9,683 nt of DNA from IMG/VR virus record IMGVR_UViG_2802429242_000007; one strand, given 5' to 3'. The stretch's first letter is position 1; the number at the start of each line of letters is the position of its first letter. Below the pieces are notes generated by a model. That model searched no databases. It saw only the letters and a list, made by a program, of their open reading frames with translations, and was not told the DNA's origin. The DNA comes from a virus. Taxonomy: Duplodnaviria > Heunggongvirae > Uroviricota > Caudoviricetes. Shown in pieces: positions 1,534 to 8,429 of the stretch. A program made the translations under genes and the position numbers.

Positions 1534-1536
1534 GAT

Positions 1537-1614
1537 TTACCTCTAAGGTAATTAAAAACCACATAAGACACGAAATCAATAGATCTAAGAATATTTTGTT
1601 ACCCATTAGGTAAC
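1537..1614 (-). promoter_or_regulatory. promoter-operator cassette for the distal leftward operon: operator sites 1537-1551 and 1598-1614 flanking a sigma70-like promoter
   Basis: Perfect inverted repeats TTACC-tctaa-GGTAA (1537-1551) and GTTACC-catta-GGTAAC (1598-1614), starts 62 bp apart. On the minus strand, -35 TTGATT (1579..1574), 17-bp spacer, -10 TTTAAT (1556..1551); the downstream operator abuts the -10. Confidence 0.6.
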
Positions 1615-3614: not shown

Positions 3615-3845
3615 TCATGAGTAGAAGAAGTATGCCAGTTCTGCTTTTGAGCGCAGCCATTGTCTTGTTTTACAGGCTTTAAAAAGCCCATTCATCAATA
3701 CCTTACCTGGCATTTTGCGCTTACCTGTTAAGTGAGTCTGGATATAGTGACTCGTCGTTCCGGCTTCCTGTGCGAAGGCTTCACGCTCATCCGGAGTAAG
3801 TGCAAGCCAGTGCTTTTTGAAATCGAAATGTCCGTTATCGCTCAT
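3615..3845 (-). CDS. Cro/CII-like small HTH DNA-binding regulator, 76 aa
   Basis: First gene of the leftward operon, divergent from the repressor. An HTH-like segment (REAFAQEAGTTSHYIQTHLTGKRKMPGKVL) is visible. Functional role is inferred from position. Confidence 0.6.
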   Translation of the reverse strand: MSDNGHFDFKKHWLALTPDEREAFAQEAGTTSHYIQTHLTGKRKMPGKVLMNGLFKACKTRQWLRSKAELAYFFYS

Positions 3846-3870: not shown

Positions 3871-3944
3871 ATAATAAATATTCACCTATAAGGTAACAAA
3901 AATCAAGGATAGTTACCCACGAGGTGCATTTACCTGTTGGGTAA
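3871..3944. promoter_or_regulatory. divergent control region: three operator sites plus a leftward PR-like promoter
   Basis: Sites TcACC-tataa-GGTAA (3882-3896), TTACC-cacga-GGTgc (3913-3927) and TTACC-tgttg-GGTAA (3930-3944). Leftward promoter on the minus strand: -35 TTGTTA (3899..3894), 17-bp spacer, -10 TATTAT (3876..3871), overlapping the first site. A weaker rightward promoter may overlap the third site. Confidence 0.55.
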
Positions 3945-3999
3945 TATTGCTTTAAATTGAATCATCTTCTGATTCAGATATGAGGCGATTTTCCAGAAA

Positions 4000-4584
4000 A
4001 TGAAAAGTATCCAGGACGTCCGCAGGCAAAATCTCAACGACTTGATCGACCGTGAATTCAATGGTGTTCAGACGCGGATGGCTGAAAAACTTGGAACTCA
4101 GGCAAATCTGGTAAACCGCTGGGCTCTTGGCAAGAAGGTTATCGGCGACCAGGTTGCACGAAAAATTGAAGCTGCCGCCAATAAACCCCGTAACTGGCTT
4201 GATATCGATCGCTCGCTTTCTCAGGAAGGTTTTCAGCCTGTCGGCCCAAGCGACATTGGCCAGCTGGCGGCTCACAACCTGGAACGCTGGATGAGCGAAA
4301 GCCGCGACCTTTCAACACAGGGAAAACTTCACCGCGCATCCGGCGTAGCCCAGGTGACAATCAGCCGCCTGTTAAACAATGAGGTCAGCGTTTCCATTTC
4401 CACCCTGGAGAATGTTGCATCCGCATTCGGGCGTCACGGCTATGAATTACTGATTCACCCGCACGACCCTGCGACCATCAACTATGATCGCTCGCGCTAC
4501 GCATTGTTACCCGAAACCGAGAAAGCAAAGATCGAAAGTTACATTGAATTTGTCATCAACCAGAACGAAAAAAACAAACAATAA
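4000..4584 (+). CDS. CI-like immunity repressor with two XRE-type HTH domains and no S24 peptidase domain, 194 aa
   Basis: Two HTH-like segments: QTRMAEKLGTQANLVNRWALGKKVIGDQVARKIEAAANKPRNWL and LSTQGKLHRASGVAQVTISRLLNNEVSVSISTLENVASAFGRHGYEL. No Ala-Gly/Ser...Lys autocleavage module is visible. Divergent from the Cro-like gene and flanked by operator clusters. Confidence 0.7.
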   Translation: MKSIQDVRRQNLNDLIDREFNGVQTRMAEKLGTQANLVNRWALGKKVIGDQVARKIEAAANKPRNWLDIDRSLSQEGFQPVGPSDIGQLAAHNLERWMSESRDLSTQGKLHRASGVAQVTISRLLNNEVSVSISTLENVASAFGRHGYELLIHPHDPATINYDRSRYALLPETEKAKIESYIEFVINQNEKNKQ

Positions 4585-4604: not shown

Positions 4605-4630
4605 AAGCCGCCTTATGGCGGCTTTTTTAT
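4605..4630 (+). terminator. intrinsic terminator after the repressor gene
   Basis: AAGCCGCC-ttat-GGCGGCTT (8-bp stem) followed by TTTTTTAT, 20 nt after the stop. Confidence 0.7.
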
Positions 4631-4640
4631 TGCCTATTCG

Positions 4641-4718
4641 ATTACCTAACGGGTAATTTTTTTAACTCATATCTATTGACATCAAACCATATACGCATAA
4701 TTATTACCTCAACGGTAA
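4641..4718 (+). promoter_or_regulatory. promoter-operator cassette (PL-like) for the rightward operon: operator sites 4641-4657 and 4704-4718 flanking a sigma70-like promoter
   Basis: ATTACC-taacg-GGTAAT (4641-4657) and TTACC-tcaac-GGTAA (4704-4718), starts 62 bp apart. -35 TTGACA (4676-4681), 17-bp spacer, -10 AATTAT (4699-4704). The geometry matches the 1537-1614 cassette exactly. Confidence 0.6.
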
Positions 4719-4737
4719 CAGACCGAGGTAACAAGTT

Positions 4738-4890
4738 ATGCAGTGGAAAATCATCAACGGTTGGTACTGCGTTACTGCATGCGGATTCATGAGCTGGAAG
4801 TTCCGCACCTTACAGGAAGGCATTAAGTGGGCTTTCGTCAGCAAAGAAGCTCGCGATGTGGCCAACGATAACGAGATATGGGAGGGCTGA
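4738..4890 (+). CDS. small Trp/Cys-rich protein, 50 aa, first gene of the rightward operon
   Basis: ATG 4738 with GAGGT 8 nt upstream; MQWKIINGWYCVTACGFMSWKFRTLQEGIKWAFVSKEARDVANDNEIWEG. Not in the ORF track, probably because of a length cutoff. The stop lies within the next gene's ribosome-binding region. Confidence 0.45.
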   Translation: MQWKIINGWYCVTACGFMSWKFRTLQEGIKWAFVSKEARDVANDNEIWEG

Positions 4891-4892
4891 TA

Positions 4893-5192
4893 ATGAACGT
4901 TAATCAGCAGAAAAATCTTCAAAAAATCATGCTGGCATTCGACAAGGACTACCGCCTGTCAGAACAGCTATATGACCGACAAGTTGAACTGATTGAGAGC
5001 ATCCGACTTCATCAACTGTCCTCAACTTTCGACGTTGTAACAGGCAAAGGCGTTCGTCAGGAAGTACTGGAGGCTGCTAAAGACAGCCCTGAGTTCGAAG
5101 AACTGATGGATGCCTATCGGCGAGAGGCAATGGCAATTATCGCCCGCTGGGATCTGGCTGATCAGCTTGATGGGCAGAGGGACGCGGCATGA
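4893..5192 (+). CDS. hypothetical phage early protein, 99 aa
   Basis: ATG 4893 with GGAGGG 6 nt upstream (the track's start at 4878 is less likely); stop overlaps the exonuclease ATG (ATGA at 5189-5192). Confidence 0.6.
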   Translation: MNVNQQKNLQKIMLAFDKDYRLSEQLYDRQVELIESIRLHQLSSTFDVVTGKGVRQEVLEAAKDSPEFEELMDAYRREAMAIIARWDLADQLDGQRDAA

Positions 5193-6010
5193 AACCGGGA
5201 ATTTATTTCGACATCAGCAACGAAGACTACCACGCCGGTGACGGCGTGAGTAAGTCGCAACTGGACATGGTTGCCAAGAATCCGGCGCTTCTTAAATGGG
5301 TTCAGGCAGCACCAGAAGACGAAGAGAAAAAGTCTGCACTGGATATGGGAACCGCATTGCACTGCCTGCTTCTGGAACCTGGAGAATTCGACAAACGCTT
5401 CATCGTTTCACCGAAATTCGATCGTCGGACGAAACAAGGTAAAGCTGACGAAGAGGCATTTCTTCGTGATGTGGCGGATATGGGGATTACGGTACTTGAT
5501 GCCGAGCAGTGGCGGAAACTGGAGCTGATGCGTGATAGCGCAATGGCTCACCCGGCGGCACGCTGGATGCTGGAAGCCCCTGGTTACTGCGAAGCATCAA
5601 TGTACTGGAACGATGAAGATACGGGTGAGTTGTGCCGCATTCGTCCAGACAAATGGCTGAACGAGCACAACGTGATCGTCGACGTGAAAAAGGTTGCAGA
5701 TATGGACCGTTTTGCACGCCACATCGAGGAATTCCGCTACCACGTGCAGGACGCAATGTACCGCGAAGGCGCAATGAGGGTTACTGGTCAGCCGCATGGT
5801 TTTTTCTTTCTTGCCGTGAGCGAAAGCATTGATTGTGGTCGATATCCGGTACGCGTGTTCGAGCTGGATGCGCCGGATGTCGATGCCGGGCACGCTCTGT
5901 TCCGCCGGGATCTGAATACCTATCACGAATGCCGCATCAACGATGAGTGGGGCGGAGTGGAAATTATTAAACGCCATGACTGGGCACGTAAACAGGATAT
6001 GTACGTATGA
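5189..6010 (+). CDS. PD-(D/E)XK exonuclease of the RecE (exodeoxyribonuclease VIII) C-terminal-domain type, 273 aa
   Basis: N-terminus MKPGIYFDISNEDYHAGDGVSKSQL and an internal D...VDVKK motif fit the RecE-type nuclease domain as I recall it; ATGA-coupled to the downstream annealing protein, as in recE-recT. Confidence 0.7.
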   Translation: MKPGIYFDISNEDYHAGDGVSKSQLDMVAKNPALLKWVQAAPEDEEKKSALDMGTALHCLLLEPGEFDKRFIVSPKFDRRTKQGKADEEAFLRDVADMGITVLDAEQWRKLELMRDSAMAHPAARWMLEAPGYCEASMYWNDEDTGELCRIRPDKWLNEHNVIVDVKKVADMDRFARHIEEFRYHVQDAMYREGAMRVTGQPHGFFFLAVSESIDCGRYPVRVFELDAPDVDAGHALFRRDLNTYHECRINDEWGGVEIIKRHDWARKQDMYV

Positions 6011-6888
6011 GCAATGATATCGCAATCACATCACAACCAGGCGCAACTGTAGGTACTGCTGCGGCAATCTTCAGCCCGGAGGGCATGAATCAACTGGTGC
6101 GTTTCGCGGAGTTGATGTCACAAAGCAAAGCGACTGTACCGAAACATCTTGAAGGCAAACCTGCCGATTGTCTGGCGGTGACCATGCAGGCGGCACAGTG
6201 GGGAATGAACCCTTTCGCCGTGGCGCAGAAAACGCATGTGGTAAACGGAACGTTAGGCTACGAAGCACAGTTGGTAAACGCGGTCGTATCCTCTTCCAGC
6301 CTGCTAGCGACACGCCTGAATTATCGCTGGAGCGGTGACTGGTCGAATGTTAACGGCAAAACAGATAAATCACCGAATCTGACGGTAACTGTGTCAGCAG
6401 TTCTTAAAGGAGAAGCAGAACCCCGTGAGCTTACCATCAGTATGGCGCAAGCCGGAGTGCGTAACTCTCCATTGTGGGAACAGGATCCGCGCCAGCAACT
6501 TGCCTATCTTTGCACGAAACGATGGGCTCGCCTGCACGCTCCTGATGTACTTCTCGGTGTTTACACCCCAGACGAATTACAGGAAACGGCACCGCGCGTT
6601 GAGCGAGACATTACTCCGCAAACGACTACTGCTGCGGGAATGAACAGTCTGATCAACGCTAAACCAGCGAAAAAGCATGATGAGCAAACGCGTAAAGCGG
6701 ATAGCCGTGATCCAGAAGAAATGCTGATGGCCTTTACCAGCGCAGCGATGAATTACAGCACTGTCTCCGAACTGGATAAGGCTTACAAATACATTGCACA
6801 AAAACTTTCAGATGATGACGAACTGCTGGCAAAAGCCACCGACGTTTACAGCGTTCGTCGGGAAGAATTAAACGAAACATCTATGTAA
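6007..6888 (+). CDS. RecT/Red-beta family single-strand annealing protein, 293 aa
   Basis: Core ...CLAVTMQAAQWGMNPFAVAQKTHVVNG... resembles the RecT/Bet conserved region, and an ERDITP motif is shared with my recollection of lambda Bet. Sits immediately after the exonuclease with an ATGA overlap. Confidence 0.75.
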   Translation: MSNDIAITSQPGATVGTAAAIFSPEGMNQLVRFAELMSQSKATVPKHLEGKPADCLAVTMQAAQWGMNPFAVAQKTHVVNGTLGYEAQLVNAVVSSSSLLATRLNYRWSGDWSNVNGKTDKSPNLTVTVSAVLKGEAEPRELTISMAQAGVRNSPLWEQDPRQQLAYLCTKRWARLHAPDVLLGVYTPDELQETAPRVERDITPQTTTAAGMNSLINAKPAKKHDEQTRKADSRDPEEMLMAFTSAAMNYSTVSELDKAYKYIAQKLSDDDELLAKATDVYSVRREELNETSM

Positions 6889-6937: not shown

Positions 6938-7186
6938 ATGAAAGGTGCATTAGGTAAGAAGGAACTCCTGGCGGTGGTGCCACTGTCATGGAGCACTATC
7001 GACCGTATGGAGCGCGCAGGGGAATTTCCTAAACGCTGGTATATCACTGACAAACGCTGCGCATGGAACCGTGATGAAGTTGAGCGTTGGCTTGATGAAC
7101 GTCAGGCAGCAAGCCCGGCAGAGTTCCAAGGTAAAAAACCTCCTGTTCAGCAACGTGTATATCGTCCTGTGAGCAACGCGGCATGA
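6938..7186 (+). CDS. AlpA/Xis-family excisionase-like DNA-binding protein, 82 aa
   Basis: LLAVVPLSWSTIDRMERAGEFPKRWYITDKRCAWNRDEVERWLDER fits the AlpA/excisionase winged-helix pattern; GAGAGG 6 nt upstream of the ATG. Confidence 0.75.
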   Translation: MKGALGKKELLAVVPLSWSTIDRMERAGEFPKRWYITDKRCAWNRDEVERWLDERQAASPAEFQGKKPPVQQRVYRPVSNAA

Positions 7187-7299
7187 GTGTGCTGCTAAAG
7201 CACTGGAGCAAATGGTCAGGATGGTACTTATTCCTGGCCTCTGTTTCAGCATGGCTTTATCTGCTGGCATTAATTTTCAGAGAGGGTTGGATTAAGTGA
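7183..7299 (+). CDS. small hydrophobic peptide, 38 aa, possibly membrane-associated
   Basis: ATG overlaps the excisionase stop (ATGA at 7183-7186); MSVLLKHWSKWSGWYLFLASVSAWLYLLALIFREGWIK has one predicted transmembrane-like stretch. Not in the ORF track (short). Confidence 0.4.
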   Translation: MSVLLKHWSKWSGWYLFLASVSAWLYLLALIFREGWIK

Positions 7300-7595: not shown

Positions 7596-8238
7596 GAAAT
7601 ACACACTAATCTATGCAGATCCACCCTGGGTATACCGGGACAAAGCCGCAGATGGTAATCGCGGTGCCGGTTTTAAATATCCGGTTATGAGTGTGCTGGA
7701 TATCTGCCGCCTTCCTGTGTGGGATTTGGCCGATGAAAACTGTCTGTTGGCCATGTGGTGGGTGCCAACACAACCACTCGAAGCACTAAAAGTTGTTGAA
7801 GCCTGGGGATTCCGTCTGATGACGATGAAGGGCTTCACGTGGATAAAATGTGGTAGTCGACAACCAGATAAACTTGTTATGGGTATGGGACACATGACTC
7901 GCGCCAATAGTGAAGATTGCCTGTTTGCGGTAAAGGGAAAACTACCTACGCGCATTAATGCAGGGATCGTTCAGTCATTTACCGCACCGCGGCTTGAGCA
8001 TTCAAGAAAGCCAGATATCGTTCGTGAAAAACTTGTGCAATTATTAGGCGATGTTTCTCGCATTGAACTGTTCGCCCGCCAGACGTCTCATGGCTTCGAT
8101 GTTTGGGGTAATCAGTGCGAAGACCCGGCAGTGCAACTACACCCTGGATACGCGTTGGATATTGGCGGATTAACAAATGCATTCAGCAATGCTCCGCTGT
8201 CACCAACAGACAACCAGGGACGGGAGCGTGCTGCATGA
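7588..8238 (+). CDS. MT-A70-family DNA N6-adenine methyltransferase, 216 aa
   Basis: DPPW catalytic motif near the N-terminus (YTLIYADPPWVYRD) and downstream conserved blocks (LLAMWW, EAWGF, GMGHMTRANSEDCLFAVKG). Start at ATG 7588 with GGGGTGG upstream rather than the track's GTG at 7576. Confidence 0.85.
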   Translation: MTKKYTLIYADPPWVYRDKAADGNRGAGFKYPVMSVLDICRLPVWDLADENCLLAMWWVPTQPLEALKVVEAWGFRLMTMKGFTWIKCGSRQPDKLVMGMGHMTRANSEDCLFAVKGKLPTRINAGIVQSFTAPRLEHSRKPDIVREKLVQLLGDVSRIELFARQTSHGFDVWGNQCEDPAVQLHPGYALDIGGLTNAFSNAPLSPTDNQGRERAA

Positions 8239-8429
8239 ACAGGGCATCACCAGCAGATTTAAGAAAATGCCTTGAAACTGCAAACATGCTTGCACACAGC
8301 GGGATCAGGTTTGTTCCAATTCCCGCTGTCACTGATGCTGAATTTGCAACACTGTCAGCAATATTCGAAAACAAAATTGAATCACTGGCAGCAGAAGCAG
8401 AGATGGAAGAAAATCAGCAGAACTATTAA
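8235..8429 (+). CDS. hypothetical small protein, 64 aa, translationally coupled to the methyltransferase
   Basis: ATG 8235 overlaps the methyltransferase stop (ATGA); MNRASPADLRKCLETANMLAHSGIRFVPIPAVTDAEFATLSAIFENKIESLAAEAEMEENQQNY. The track's longer version (from 8115) overlaps the methyltransferase in another frame and is rejected. Confidence 0.55.
   Translation: MNRASPADLRKCLETANMLAHSGIRFVPIPAVTDAEFATLSAIFENKIESLAAEAEMEENQQNY

What the first reader, a model, noticed from the sequence alone, without database searches (positions are those of the whole stretch)
4738..5192. Two uncharacterised small proteins lead the rightward operon
The 50-aa Trp/Cys-rich ORF (4738-4890) has a good Shine-Dalgarno sequence and lies immediately after the PL-like promoter. 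The 99-aa protein (4893-5192) is ATGA-coupled to the exonuclease. In lambdoid phages this slot usually holds host-takeover functions (Kil, Gam, Abc, CIII-type), and neither protein matches one I can name. A small protein coupled to a recombination exonuclease could be a host nuclease inhibitor.
Basis: inference. Interest (0 to 1): 0.4.

Follow-up and report, generated by a model that had tools for sequence, protein, structure and literature searches.

The report
Probable Gam-like nuclease inhibitor plus orphan
The two small genes are real early genes of a phiV10/epsilon15-type prophage: the 99-residue one is probably a diverged relative of phage lambda's Gam protein, which blocks the host's DNA-degrading RecBCD enzyme, and the 50-residue one is a conserved protein of unknown function.

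Summary
ORFs 4738-4890 (50 aa) and 4893-5192 (99 aa) are the first two genes behind a repressor-controlled promoter. The second overlaps the exonuclease start by ATGA. The window is a phiV10/epsilon15-type (Uetakevirus) prophage next to guaA. The genes are phiV10 gp39 and gp38 (PHROGs 898 and 856), annotated "hypothetical" everywhere.

The 99-aa protein is probably a diverged Gam-type host-nuclease inhibitor (confidence about 0.55).
- Its family profile matches lambda Gam's C-terminal half (hhalign 87%; best Pfam hit of one member is PF06064, E 0.0042, below threshold).
- It has GamS's length and acidity.
- It always sits at the head of the recombination module, in front of RecE-type, lambda-Exo-type or RecT genes.
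- In sister phages it lies exactly where phi80 carries gamL, directly after a homolog of phi80 Mog ("modifier of Gam").

Against this: the N-terminal helix is unrelated to Gam's, Foldseek found nothing, and phiV10 and epsilon15 are Chi-rich, unlike known inhibitor-encoding lambdoid phages.

The 50-aa protein is under purifying selection (dN/dS 0.1-0.3). It has no detectable homolog or confident fold. A Kil-like host-takeover role is only a positional guess.

This is a new variant of a known kind, of moderate interest.

The parts
4000..4584 (+). Context: 194-aa double-HTH prophage repressor (phiV10 gp40 / epsilon15 gp38 type), transcribed in the same direction as the operon
   Evidence: PF01381 HTH_3 E 1.2e-9. 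Annotated as repressor in phiV10 and epsilon15.
4605..4630 (+). Rho-independent terminator of the repressor gene (8-bp stem, T-run)
   Evidence: Annotated as terminator in phiV10.
4641..4657 (.). Operator ATTACCTAACGGGTAAT (perfect ATTACC-N5-GGTAAT palindrome) upstream of the -35
   Evidence: 0 matches expected by chance. Same motif annotated as repressor-binding sites in epsilon15.
4676..4704 (+). Sigma-70 promoter TTGACA-17-AATTAT, the early ('PL-like') promoter of the operon
   Evidence: 10 of 12. Same TTGACA-17-GATTAT layout in epsilon15.
4703..4719 (.). Second operator ATTACCTCAACGGTAAC, overlapping the -10 hexamer
   Evidence: 1 mismatch. Equivalent site in epsilon15.
4725..4729 (+). Shine-Dalgarno GAGGT for the 50-aa gene
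   Evidence: Read from the sequence.
4738..4890 (+). gp39-type gene: 50-aa conserved early protein of unknown function (PHROG 898). N-terminal 25 aa are invariant and the C-terminus is variable.
   Evidence: dN/dS 0.11-0.30. Always the first gene after the repressor/operator region in relatives.
4881..4885 (+). Shine-Dalgarno GGAGG for the 99-aa gene, inside the end of the 50-aa gene
   Evidence: Read from the sequence.
4893..5192 (+). gp38-type gene: 99-aa acidic all-helical protein (PHROG 856), a probable diverged Gam-type host-nuclease inhibitor. Residues ~31-86 align with lambda GamS 33-90.
   Evidence: sequence. (helices 3-48, 56-63, 66-98). (pI 4.7). (context).
5189..6010 (+). 273-aa PD-(D/E)XK exonuclease equal to the RecE C-terminal nuclease domain. 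Its start overlaps the gp38 stop (ATGA).
   Evidence: PF12684 E 5.3e-22. NF007259 positions 606-873, E 1.6e-91.
6007..6888 (+). RecT-family single-strand annealing protein, overlapping the exonuclease gene by 4 nt
   Evidence: PF03837 E 1.3e-31. PHROG 561.

Best explanation
The window is the immunity and early region of a phiV10/epsilon15-type temperate podophage.

When the repressor leaves the two ATTACC-N5-GGTAAT operators, transcription from the promoter at 4676-4704 runs through gp39, gp38, the exonuclease, RecT, Xis/AlpA and onward.

The 99-aa protein (gp38) is a diverged Gam-type protein. It is an acidic, helical and probably dimeric protein made just ahead of the phage's own exonuclease/annealase pair. 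It binds a host end-processing nuclease (most likely RecBCD, possibly also SbcCD). This protects linear phage DNA ends and leaves recombination to the phage Exo/RecT pair.

Its C-terminal ~56 residues are homologous to the C-terminal half of lambda Gam. From my knowledge of the GamS structure I take that half to be the dimerisation/duplex-DNA-mimic part; this was not checked here. Its N-terminal long helix is a different sequence type.

Shown:
- gene reality and operon anatomy;
- the sequence relationship to Gam at moderate significance;
- positional equivalence with gamL.

Inferred:
- dimerisation;
- binding and inhibition of RecBCD.

The 50-aa protein (gp39) is a genuine protein tied to the immunity/promoter module and not to the recombination module. 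Its function is not established. My best guess is a small host-takeover factor occupying the kil/cIII-type position (about 0.2).
For: SEQUENCE
- An HMM of the gp38 family was searched against 38 early proteins of lambda, P22 and Rac. It ranks lambda Gam first (E 1.5e-4), aligning gp38 36-86 with Gam 78-130.
- The same test with the gp39 HMM gives nothing better than E 1.2, which serves as a negative control.
- A profile search of all PDB sequences gives Gam chains 5mbv_A and 2uuz_A as the best of the four hits that rest on a single matched stretch (E 0.16). Three hits score better overall, but none of them has any stretch that passes on its own.
- Family member P0087 has PF06064 (Gam) as its best Pfam hit: E 0.0042, residues 31-94 against profile 33-96 of 98.
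- hhalign of the gp38 family against 24 Gam sequences gives probability 87%, E 4e-6, score 36, columns 31-86 against 33-90.
- Controls for that comparison: 200 column shuffles reach at most 21.4 (mean 11.5, sd 2.4), and the reversed profile scores 17.6. DUF1382, another small helical protein of the same region, scores 0.9%.
- In the reverse direction, the Gam HMM against all 482 stop-to-stop ORFs of phiV10 puts the gp38 ORF first (E 0.018).
- The most conserved positions of the two families line up: Gly (gp38 nearly invariant G53, Gam invariant G56), the EF(E/Q)E motif, and an Arg in the following helix (gp38 R76/R77, invariant among the close relatives, against Gam invariant R81).

PHYSICAL PROPERTIES
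- 99 aa against 98 aa for GamS, and pI 4.7 against 5.0.
- The AF2 model has a long N-terminal helix followed by two shorter helices. GamS has 'long N-terminal helical extensions' (PMC5218532).

CONTEXT
- gp38 homologs always lie immediately 5' of the first recombination gene, usually with a 4-nt overlap.
- That downstream gene is a RecE-type DUF3799 nuclease in the window, L169, L170, L173, L174 and L182.
- It is a YqaJ/lambda-Exo-type nuclease in epsilon15, L172, L180 and L181.
- It is RecT directly in L171.
- In a lambdoid contig the order is KilR, gp38-like, exo, recT, like lambda's kil-gam-bet-exo.
- In phiv142-3, L170, L173 and L174 the gene directly upstream is a clear homolog (45-69% identity, E 1e-53 to 1e-127) of phi80 Agt/Mog. 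GenBank annotates that protein as 'anti-toxin for Gam / modifier of Gam', and in phi80 it directly precedes gamL.
- The mog 3' end of phiv142-3 is nearly identical in DNA to phi80's up to the stop codon. Both next genes then open with the same ATGAACG, after which the sequences diverge, so gp38 sits in the gamL slot.
- phi80 GamL is accepted as an anti-RecBCD protein although it resembles lambda Gam only in its N-terminal ~34 residues (PMC12315714).
- No canonical Gam, GamL or Abc2 is found anywhere in phiV10 or epsilon15.
Against: - The window protein gives no Pfam or NCBIfam hit even at E 10. The best family member is below Pfam's gathering score (17.7 against 25 bits).
- With single sequences as template, hhalign probability is only 15%, and lambda orf61 scores 12%.
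- Only the C-terminal ~56 columns align. The N-terminal helix is the part of Gam that plugs RecB's ssDNA channel, and it has no similarity here.
- The AF2 model is of modest confidence (pLDDT 66, pTM 0.32). Foldseek found nothing in the PDB and nothing meaningful in BFVD.
- phiV10 has 8 Chi sites against ~2.7 expected, and epsilon15 has 6 against ~3.2, all in one orientation. Lambdoid phages that encode RecBCD inhibitors are depleted of Chi (PMC3784561; PMC12315714).
- Mog homologs are not always next to a Gam-type gene. In Sf6 the Mog homolog precedes cIII-kil...erf...abc2.
- There are no experimental data on either protein.
Confidence: 0.55

Rival explanations
1. gp38 is an accessory recombination factor in the manner of P22 Arf or Abc1. 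It would work with the phage exonuclease/RecT pair, for example by loading or bridging them, and would not inhibit a host nuclease. The Gam-like C-terminal half would then be only a shared dimerisation module.
For: - It is tightly translationally coupled to the first recombination gene in every relative.
- The Chi-rich genomes suggest RecBCD-Chi recombination stays in use.
- Only the C-terminal half resembles Gam.
- Small Rec-module accessory proteins of unknown mechanism do exist (PMC12315714).
Against: - The immediate partner belongs to three unrelated families: RecE-type PDDEXK, YqaJ/lambda-Exo and RecT. This is hard to reconcile with a specific physical partner.
- There is no similarity to Arf or Abc1.
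- It replaces gamL at an identical junction behind Mog.
Confidence: 0.17
2. gp38 has the Gam scaffold, but its new N-terminal helix directs it to another target. That target could be SbcCD or a nuclease of an anti-phage defence system. RecBCD-Chi activity would be left largely intact.
For: - The N-terminal 30 residues are unrelated to the RecB-channel helix shared by Gam and GamL.
- phiV10 and epsilon15 are Chi-rich with strict orientation.
- phi80 GamL is annotated as inhibiting both RecBCD and SbcCD.
Against: - There is no direct evidence for any alternative target.
- Chi excess on the coding strand may partly reflect codon usage, since all sites are on the strand of the structural genes.
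- The simplest transfer of function from Gam and GamL is RecBCD.
Confidence: 0.15
3. The resemblance to Gam is a chance match between two small acidic helical proteins. gp38 would then have an unrelated role, for example as a regulator or an anti-defence protein of another kind.
For: - All sequence scores are below curated thresholds.
- Single-sequence hhalign gives 15%.
- There is no Foldseek support.
Against: - Independent lines converge: reciprocal best hits, equal length and colinearity, aligned conserved motifs, position at the head of Rec modules, and the gamL-slot replacement.
- Real-protein and shuffle controls score far lower.
Confidence: 0.13
4. For the 50-aa gene: it is not a functional protein but a leader ORF or RNA element that only serves translation or attenuation of the operon.
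For: - It is the first ORF after the promoter.
- Its first 12 codons are identical at DNA level in three phages that differ at many later synonymous sites.
- Its C-terminus is variable.
Against: - dN/dS is 0.11-0.30 in comparisons with the window, with synonymous sites near saturation. In the first 25 codons pS is 0.5-0.6 against pN 0.02-0.07 for window vs BUCT554 and PAT1.
- It has a good Shine-Dalgarno sequence.
- There is no RNA-structure signal (z -1.4) and no Rfam hit.
- It is retained when mog or a 57-aa gene is inserted behind it.
Confidence: 0.08

Closest known systems
Lambda Gam (GamS, Pfam PF06064; PDB 2UUZ, 5MBV)
   Same: - 98 aa against 99 aa, both acidic and all-helical, with a long N-terminal helix.
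- The C-terminal ~56 residues align (hhalign 87%), with the conserved positions Gly / EF(E/Q)E / Arg in register.
- The gene lies at the promoter-proximal edge of the recombination module, after a kil-type gene in one lambdoid relative.
   Different: - Scores are below the Pfam threshold.
- The N-terminal helix that plugs the RecB channel is unrelated.
- The host phage is a Chi-rich podophage with RecE- or Exo-type nuclease plus RecT.
- RecBCD binding is untested.
phi80 GamL with its partner Agt/Mog
   Same: - 93 aa and acidic, and the first gene of the Rec module.
- In sister phages (phiv142-3, L170, L173, L174) gp38 lies directly after a Mog homolog. In phiv142-3 the mog/next-gene junction DNA is nearly identical to phi80's.
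   Different: - There is no sequence similarity between gp38 and GamL. GamL shares only Gam's N-terminal segment, and gp38 shares only Gam's C-terminal segment.
- The window itself has no mog gene.
P22 Abc2 (PF11043), Abc1 and Arf
   Same: Small proteins of a phage recombination module that modulate host RecBCD or aid the phage recombinase.
   Different: - No sequence similarity (E >= 0.69 in a 38-sequence search).
- In P22, Abc1 and Abc2 lie downstream of erf, not at the head of the module.
Small early-left host-takeover proteins (lambda Kil and CIII, Rac KilR, YdaF, YdaG), compared with the 50-aa protein
   Same: Similar size and a similar position near the start of a repressor-controlled early operon, upstream of the gam-type gene.
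   Different: - No detectable similarity to any of them (best E 1.2).
- No Pfam, NCBIfam or PDB match.
- Restricted to Uetakevirus-type immunity regions.

Membership tests
Lambda Gam family (Pfam PF06064) | Match to the PF06064 profile at or above the gathering score (25 bits) | tested here: not met
   The window protein has no hit even at E 10. The best family member, P0087, scores 17.7 bits, E 0.0042.
Lambda Gam family (Pfam PF06064) | Profile-profile homology over the whole ~98-aa protein | tested here: inconclusive
   hhalign gives 87% probability and E 4e-6, but only for columns 31-86 against 33-90. Shuffle, reversed and real-protein controls score much lower. The single-sequence template gives 15%.
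Lambda Gam family (Pfam PF06064) | Conserved N-terminal helix (MNAY..DR.E..W...) that enters the RecB ssDNA channel | tested here: not met
   gp38 residues 1-30 do not align with Gam. phi80 GamL does share this segment with Gam.
Lambda Gam family (Pfam PF06064) | Helical fold: long N-terminal helix plus a C-terminal helical dimerisation domain; dimer | tested here: inconclusive
   The AF2 monomer has helices 3-48, 56-63 and 66-98, with pLDDT 66 and pTM 0.32. Foldseek found no PDB hits and only noise in BFVD. A dimer could not be modelled.
Lambda Gam family (Pfam PF06064) | Gene at the promoter-proximal edge of the phage recombination module | tested here: met
   Window and all relatives examined.
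Lambda Gam family (Pfam PF06064) | Binds RecBCD and blocks its nuclease/helicase | not testable with these tools
   Needs biochemistry or genetics. No literature on these proteins was found.
Lambda Gam family (Pfam PF06064) | Associated trait, not a definition: phage genome depleted of Chi | tested here: not met
   phiV10 has 8 Chi against ~2.7 expected, and epsilon15 has 6 against ~3.2. The trait is described in PMC3784561 and PMC12315714.
phi80 GamL type | Sequence similarity to GamL | tested here: not met
   HMM E 0.07 among 4 sequences. hhalign probability 0.5%.
phi80 GamL type | Gene directly downstream of an Agt/Mog homolog | tested here: inconclusive
   Met in sister phages phiv142-3, L170, L173 and L174. 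Not met in the window, which lacks mog. The Mog homolog in Sf6 is not adjacent to a Gam-type gene.
P22 Abc2 (PF11043) | Sequence similarity to Abc2 | tested here: not met
   No Pfam hit. HMM against P22 Abc2 gives E 0.69.
Kil / KilR / CIII small early proteins (for the 50-aa protein) | Sequence similarity to any of these families | tested here: not met
   The gp39 HMM against lambda Kil and CIII, P22 Kil and C3, and Rac KilR, YdaE, YdaF and YdaG gives best E 1.2. The Pfam per-member scan shows nothing relevant.
Kil / KilR / CIII small early proteins (for the 50-aa protein) | Toxicity or filamentation on expression, or FtsH/FtsZ binding | not testable with these tools
   Needs an experiment.

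The most novel reading that the evidence does not exclude
Gam-type inhibitors are two-part mosaics. Lambda Gam shares its N-terminal channel-plugging helix with phi80 GamL and its C-terminal domain with the gp38 family. gp38 carries a third, unrelated N-terminal helix that retargets the scaffold, either to another nuclease (SbcCD or a defence nuclease) or to a partial, Chi-compatible modulation of RecBCD. This would explain why these phages, unlike known inhibitor-encoding phages, keep many co-oriented Chi sites. Separately, the invariant 25-residue N-terminus of gp39 could define a new class of small host-takeover protein linked to the Uetakevirus immunity switch.
Probability: 0.15. Interest if true: 0.7.

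Novelty: new variant of a known kind. Interest (0 to 1): 0.45.

Why it matters
If gp38 is a working Gam analogue, three things follow.

1. It adds a further sequence type of anti-RecBCD protein, found outside lambdoid phages, to the four catalogued in lambdoid phages (Gam, GamL, Abc2, MuGam).
2. It gives RecE/RecT- and Exo/RecT-type recombineering cassettes from this lineage their own native end-protection factor.
3. It shows that Gam-type proteins evolve by swapping N- and C-terminal halves.

RecBCD inhibitors also trigger several anti-phage systems, so recognising a hidden one matters for predicting phage-defence outcomes. That point comes from my own knowledge and from abstracts listed.

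The segment is present in about 10% of complete E. coli genomes. The conflict with Chi abundance offers a direct test of the rule that inhibitor-encoding phages avoid Chi.

The 50-aa protein remains a well-conserved orphan at the first position of the early operon.

Tried and rejected
- Pfam, NCBIfam and PHROG function calls for both proteins gave nothing beyond the unannotated PHROGs 898 and 856.
- An exhaustive HMMER search of 1.84 billion representatives with the gp38 profile found only 32 hits, all the same small family. No bridge to a named family emerged.
- Foldseek with the gp38 model gave 0 hits in the PDB and 2 noise hits in BFVD.
- The AF2 model of the 50-aa protein has pLDDT 54 and is unusable, so I ran no further search on it.
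- I tested whether gp38 is a detached piece of full-length RecE's N-terminal region. Rac RecE is not among the HMM hits, so I rejected this.
- A weak HMM hit of gp38 to lambda orf63/DUF1382 (E 0.008) was not confirmed by hhalign (0.9%), so I rejected it.
- By eye, gp39 resembles YdaF (S..F.T......W) and the start of lambda CIII (MQ[YW].I..GW). The HMM does not support either (E 2-2.8), so I kept these only as unverified leads.
- A PDB hit of gp39 to a mucolipin-2 segment (E 1.3) looks like chance. By my rough hand calculation, the mean hydropathy of gp39's N-terminal segment is too low for a membrane helix.
- I looked for an RNA element in the 5' end of gp39. Folding gives z -1.4 and Rfam finds nothing.
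- Literature: searches by accession found nothing. The phi80 genome paper (Rotman et al. 2012) is not held, so the roles of GamL and Mog rest on the GenBank annotation and on PMC12315714.
Full report
**1. What the window is**

The 651 bases around the finding are 99.2% identical to Escherichia phage phiV10 and 100% identical to a prophage in E. coli N1131. That prophage sits next to guaA.

The gene order matches phiV10 and epsilon15 (genus Uetakevirus):
- replication genes on the minus strand;
- a Cro-like gene at 3615-3845 (-);
- a 194-aa double-HTH repressor at 4000-4584 (+);
- the two small ORFs;
- a 273-aa PD-(D/E)XK nuclease;
- RecT;
- an AlpA-type excisionase;
- a 38-aa membrane ORF;
- a PerC-like gene;
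- an MT-A70 methylase;
- a DUF1382 gene;
- a P4-type integrase on the minus strand.

The two ORFs are phiV10 gp39 and gp38, equivalent to epsilon15 gp37 and gp36. They belong to PHROG 898 (E 1.9e-38) and PHROG 856 (E 1.5e-55), both of 'unknown function', and are 'hypothetical protein' in every annotated record seen. The segment occurs in 561 of 5,426 complete E. coli genomes.

**2. Check of the observation**

All the stated features are present.
- ORF1 runs from ATG 4738 to TGA 4888-4890, with GAGGT at 4725-4729.
- ORF2 runs from ATG 4893 to 5192, with GGAGG at 4881-4885.
- The ORF2 stop overlaps the nuclease ATG at 5189 (ATGA).
- The promoter TTGACA-17-AATTAT at 4676-4704 is the best sigma-70 match in the region (10 of 12).
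- The repressor gene's terminator lies at 4605-4624.

One feature is new. The promoter is bracketed by two 17-bp palindromes, ATTACC-N5-GGTAAT, at 4641-4657 and 4703-4719. None is expected by chance. The same motif, in the same arrangement around TTGACA-17-GATTAT, is annotated as repressor-binding sites in epsilon15. This is therefore a repressor-controlled early promoter.

Both ORFs are under purifying selection.
- For the 50-aa ORF, dN/dS is 0.11-0.30 in comparisons with the window, with dS above 1. In its first 25 codons pS is 0.5-0.6 against pN 0.02-0.07 for window vs BUCT554 and PAT1.
- For the 99-aa ORF, pN is 0.15-0.47 against pS 0.48-0.84.

**3. The 99-aa protein: sequence evidence**

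The family is small and evolves fast.
- The word-indexed search found only relatives of at least 74% identity in Escherichia, Salmonella, Shigella, Citrobacter and Kluyvera.
- An exhaustive profile search of 1.84 billion representatives found 32 proteins, with full-length members down to about 31-41% identity.
- No named family was reached.

I took the early-left proteins of lambda, P22 and Rac from annotated records and searched them with a family HMM.
- Lambda Gam came first of 38 (E 1.5e-4), aligning gp38 36-86 with Gam 78-130.
- The identical test with the 50-aa family gave nothing better than E 1.2.
- Against all PDB sequences, the Gam chains 5mbv_A and 2uuz_A are the best of the four hits that rest on a single matched stretch (E 0.16). 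Three hits score better overall, but none of them has any stretch that passes on its own, and two of those shown are sums of weak matches to repeated units.
- One family member (P0087) has PF06064 'Gam' as its best Pfam hit. The match is E 0.0042, 17.7 bits against a cut-off of 25, residues 31-94 against profile 33-96 of 98.
- Profile against profile, the gp38 family and 24 Gam sequences give hhalign probability 87%, E 4e-6 and score 36 over columns 31-86 against 33-90.

Controls for the profile comparison:
- 200 column shuffles of the Gam alignment reach at most 21.4 (mean 11.5, sd 2.4);
- the reversed alignment scores 17.6;
- DUF1382, a small helical protein from the same region, scores 0.9%.

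In the reverse direction, a Gam HMM ranks the gp38 ORF first among 482 stop-to-stop ORFs of phiV10 (E 0.018).

The most conserved positions of the two families coincide: a Gly (nearly invariant in gp38, invariant in Gam), the EF(E/Q)E motif, and an Arg in the following helix.

The weak points are real. Every score is below curated thresholds. With a single lambda Gam sequence as template the probability is only 15%, and lambda orf61 scores 12%. The N-terminal 30 residues do not align.

**4. The 99-aa protein: physical properties**

gp38 is 99 aa with pI 4.7. GamS is 98 aa with pI 5.0. phi80 GamL is 93 aa with pI 4.7.

The AF2 model (pLDDT 66, pTM 0.32) has a long helix at 3-48, then helices at 56-63 and 66-98. 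GamS is described as a dimer with 'long N-terminal helical extensions', one of which enters the RecB ssDNA channel, while acidic side chains mimic duplex DNA (PMC5218532).

Foldseek gave no PDB hit and only noise in BFVD. That is uninformative for an elongated, low-confidence monomer, but it is not support either.

**5. The 99-aa protein: context**

gp38 homologs always sit immediately upstream of the first recombination gene, usually with a 4-nt overlap. That downstream gene varies:
- a RecE-type DUF3799 nuclease in the window, BUCT554, PAT1, L169, L170, L173, L174 and L182;
- a YqaJ/lambda-Exo-type nuclease in epsilon15 (gp35; HHpred hit to lambda Exo in the record's own note), L172, L180 and L181;
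- RecT directly in L171.

A dedicated subunit of one nuclease is therefore unlikely.

In a lambdoid contig (L169) the order is CI-type repressor, a 126-aa ORF, KilR, gp38-like, exo, recT. This parallels lambda's kil-gam-bet-exo.

The strongest context evidence comes from phi80. Its record annotates gamL as 'host RecBCD/SbcCD enzymes inhibitor; toxic without Mog'. Directly before it lies agt, annotated 'anti-toxin for Gam; Mog, modifier of Gam'.
- The 319-337-aa genes directly upstream of gp38-like genes in L170, L173 and L174 are clear Mog homologs by blastp (45-69% identity, E 1e-53 to 1e-127).
- The 344-aa gene upstream of gp38 in phage phiv142-3 is also a Mog homolog, found by tblastn at 72% identity.
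- The last 45 nt of mog in phiv142-3 are nearly identical to phi80's up to the stop codon. Both next genes then open with the same ATGAACG, and after that the sequences diverge into gamL in one phage and gp38 in the other.
- The gp38 of phiv142-3 is about 96% identical in DNA to the window's.

So gp38 occupies the gamL slot at a precise mosaic junction.

The caveat is that Mog homologs are widespread (134 phage records). In Sf6 the homolog precedes cIII-kil-...-erf-ssb-abc2 and not a Gam-type gene.

**6. A mosaic picture**

Lambda Gam and phi80 GamL resemble each other only in the N-terminal ~34 residues (hhalign 91%). Lambda Gam and gp38 resemble each other only in the C-terminal ~56 residues (87%). 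gp38 and GamL do not resemble each other at all (0.5%).

GamL is accepted as an anti-RecBCD type on no stronger sequence grounds. PMC12315714 calls Gam and GamL different sequence types with similar predicted folds. That paper lists four anti-RecBCD types in lambdoid phages: Gam, GamL, Abc2 and MuGam. The gp38 family is not among them.

No Gam, GamL or Abc2 match other than gp38 exists in phiV10 or epsilon15.

**7. Evidence against a full Gam-like function**

phiV10 carries 8 Chi octamers, all on one strand, against about 2.7 expected under a trinucleotide Markov model. epsilon15 carries 6, all on one strand, against about 3.2.

In lambdoid phages, those encoding Gam or Abc2 are depleted of Chi (median observed/expected 0-0.3). 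Recombinase-positive, inhibitor-negative phages are enriched (about 2.5) (PMC3784561; the same trend is in PMC12315714). By that rule these phages look inhibitor-negative.

Part of the excess could be codon usage, since all sites lie on the strand of the structural genes, and the rule was derived for lambdoid phages. Still, it is the main reason I keep two rivals open: a recombination accessory factor, and a Gam scaffold retargeted by its different N-terminal helix.

**8. The 50-aa protein**

Homologs occur in Escherichia, Salmonella, Klebsiella and Enterobacter phages and prophages.

- The first 25 residues (MQWKIINGWYCVTACG[LF]MSWKFRTL) are almost invariant. The C-terminal half varies, partly because it abuts a recombination junction.
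- It is always the first gene after the repressor/operator region in Uetakevirus-type elements.
- It is separable from gp38. mog (in phiv142-3, L170 and L174) or a 57-aa gene (in L182) can lie between them. L173 has an unrelated 50-aa ORF in its place. The lambdoid L169 lacks it.
- It has no Pfam, NCBIfam or PDB relative.
- It has no similarity to Kil, KilR, CIII, YdaE, YdaF, YdaG, Ral or Arf.
- Its AF2 model is unusable (pLDDT 54).
- There is no RNA-level signal.

It belongs to the immunity/promoter module and not to the recombination module. A Kil- or CIII-like host-takeover role is a positional guess only (about 0.2). The identical first 12 codons in three otherwise diverged phages remain unexplained.

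**9. Verdict**

The 99-aa gene is best explained as a diverged Gam-type host-nuclease inhibitor at the head of the recombination module (about 0.55). It is a new variant of a known kind that current annotation misses. The 50-aa gene is a genuine, conserved orphan.

Nothing here is categorically new. The mosaic relation among Gam, GamL and gp38, and the conflict with Chi abundance, make it a moderately interesting and easily testable case.

Noticed in passing
L175 (phiV10 whole genome) and L179 (epsilon15); window 8812 (-): All Chi octamers lie on one strand. phiV10 has 8 and 0 against 2.0 and 0.7 expected. epsilon15 has 6 and 0 against 2.0 and 1.2 expected. The site in the integrase gene is at the same offset (864) in both phages and is the one seen in the window.
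   Followed up: partly
window 1536-1552 and 3929-3945: Two further operator-like sites (TTTACC-N5-GGTAAT, one mismatch each). One lies in the divergent region between the Cro-like gene and the repressor gene. The other lies upstream of the DUF1064 gene. epsilon15 also has such sites scattered through its genome.
   Followed up: no
between window 4890 and 4893; L178 3004-4038, L170 264-1244, L174 2980-3993, L182 4147-4320: The 2-nt gap between the two small genes is an insertion hot spot in relatives. A 326-344-aa homolog of phi80 Agt/Mog, or an unrelated 57-aa gene, sits there. The window and phiV10 have nothing there.
   Followed up: yes
L176 (phi80) 5555-5836 compared with lambda gam (L166 2317-2733): phi80 GamL and lambda Gam share only their N-terminal ~34 residues (hhalign 91%). 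This complements the C-terminal-only similarity between Gam and the gp38 family.
   Followed up: partly
window 5189-6888 compared with L001 5590-7350 (phiV10): The phiV10 reference record annotates the exonuclease and RecT as one fused 1761-nt CDS ('RecE-RecT fusion'). In the window, in RefSeq E. coli and in other relatives they are two genes overlapping by ATGA at 6007-6010. This could be a real fusion or a sequencing or annotation difference in phiV10.
   Followed up: no
L179 31113-32012 (epsilon15 gp35), L180/L181 4443-5342, L172 715-1614 compared with window 5189-6010: Within this phage lineage the exonuclease has been swapped between a RecE-type PD-(D/E)XK (DUF3799, 273 aa) and a YqaJ/lambda-Exo-type enzyme (299 aa). 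The gp38-like gene upstream and RecT downstream are kept.
   Followed up: partly
window 8235-8429 (+) and 7183-7299 (+): A DUF1382 gene (homolog of lambda orf63, E 1.8e-30) lies just before the integrase gene. A 38-aa ORF annotated in phiV10 as a membrane protein follows the AlpA/Xis gene. Both are of unknown function.
   Followed up: no
window 4738-4773: The first 12 codons of the 50-aa gene are identical at DNA level in the window, Enterobacter phage BUCT554 and Salmonella phage PAT1. Later codons carry many synonymous differences. No RNA structure or Rfam family explains this.
   Followed up: partly
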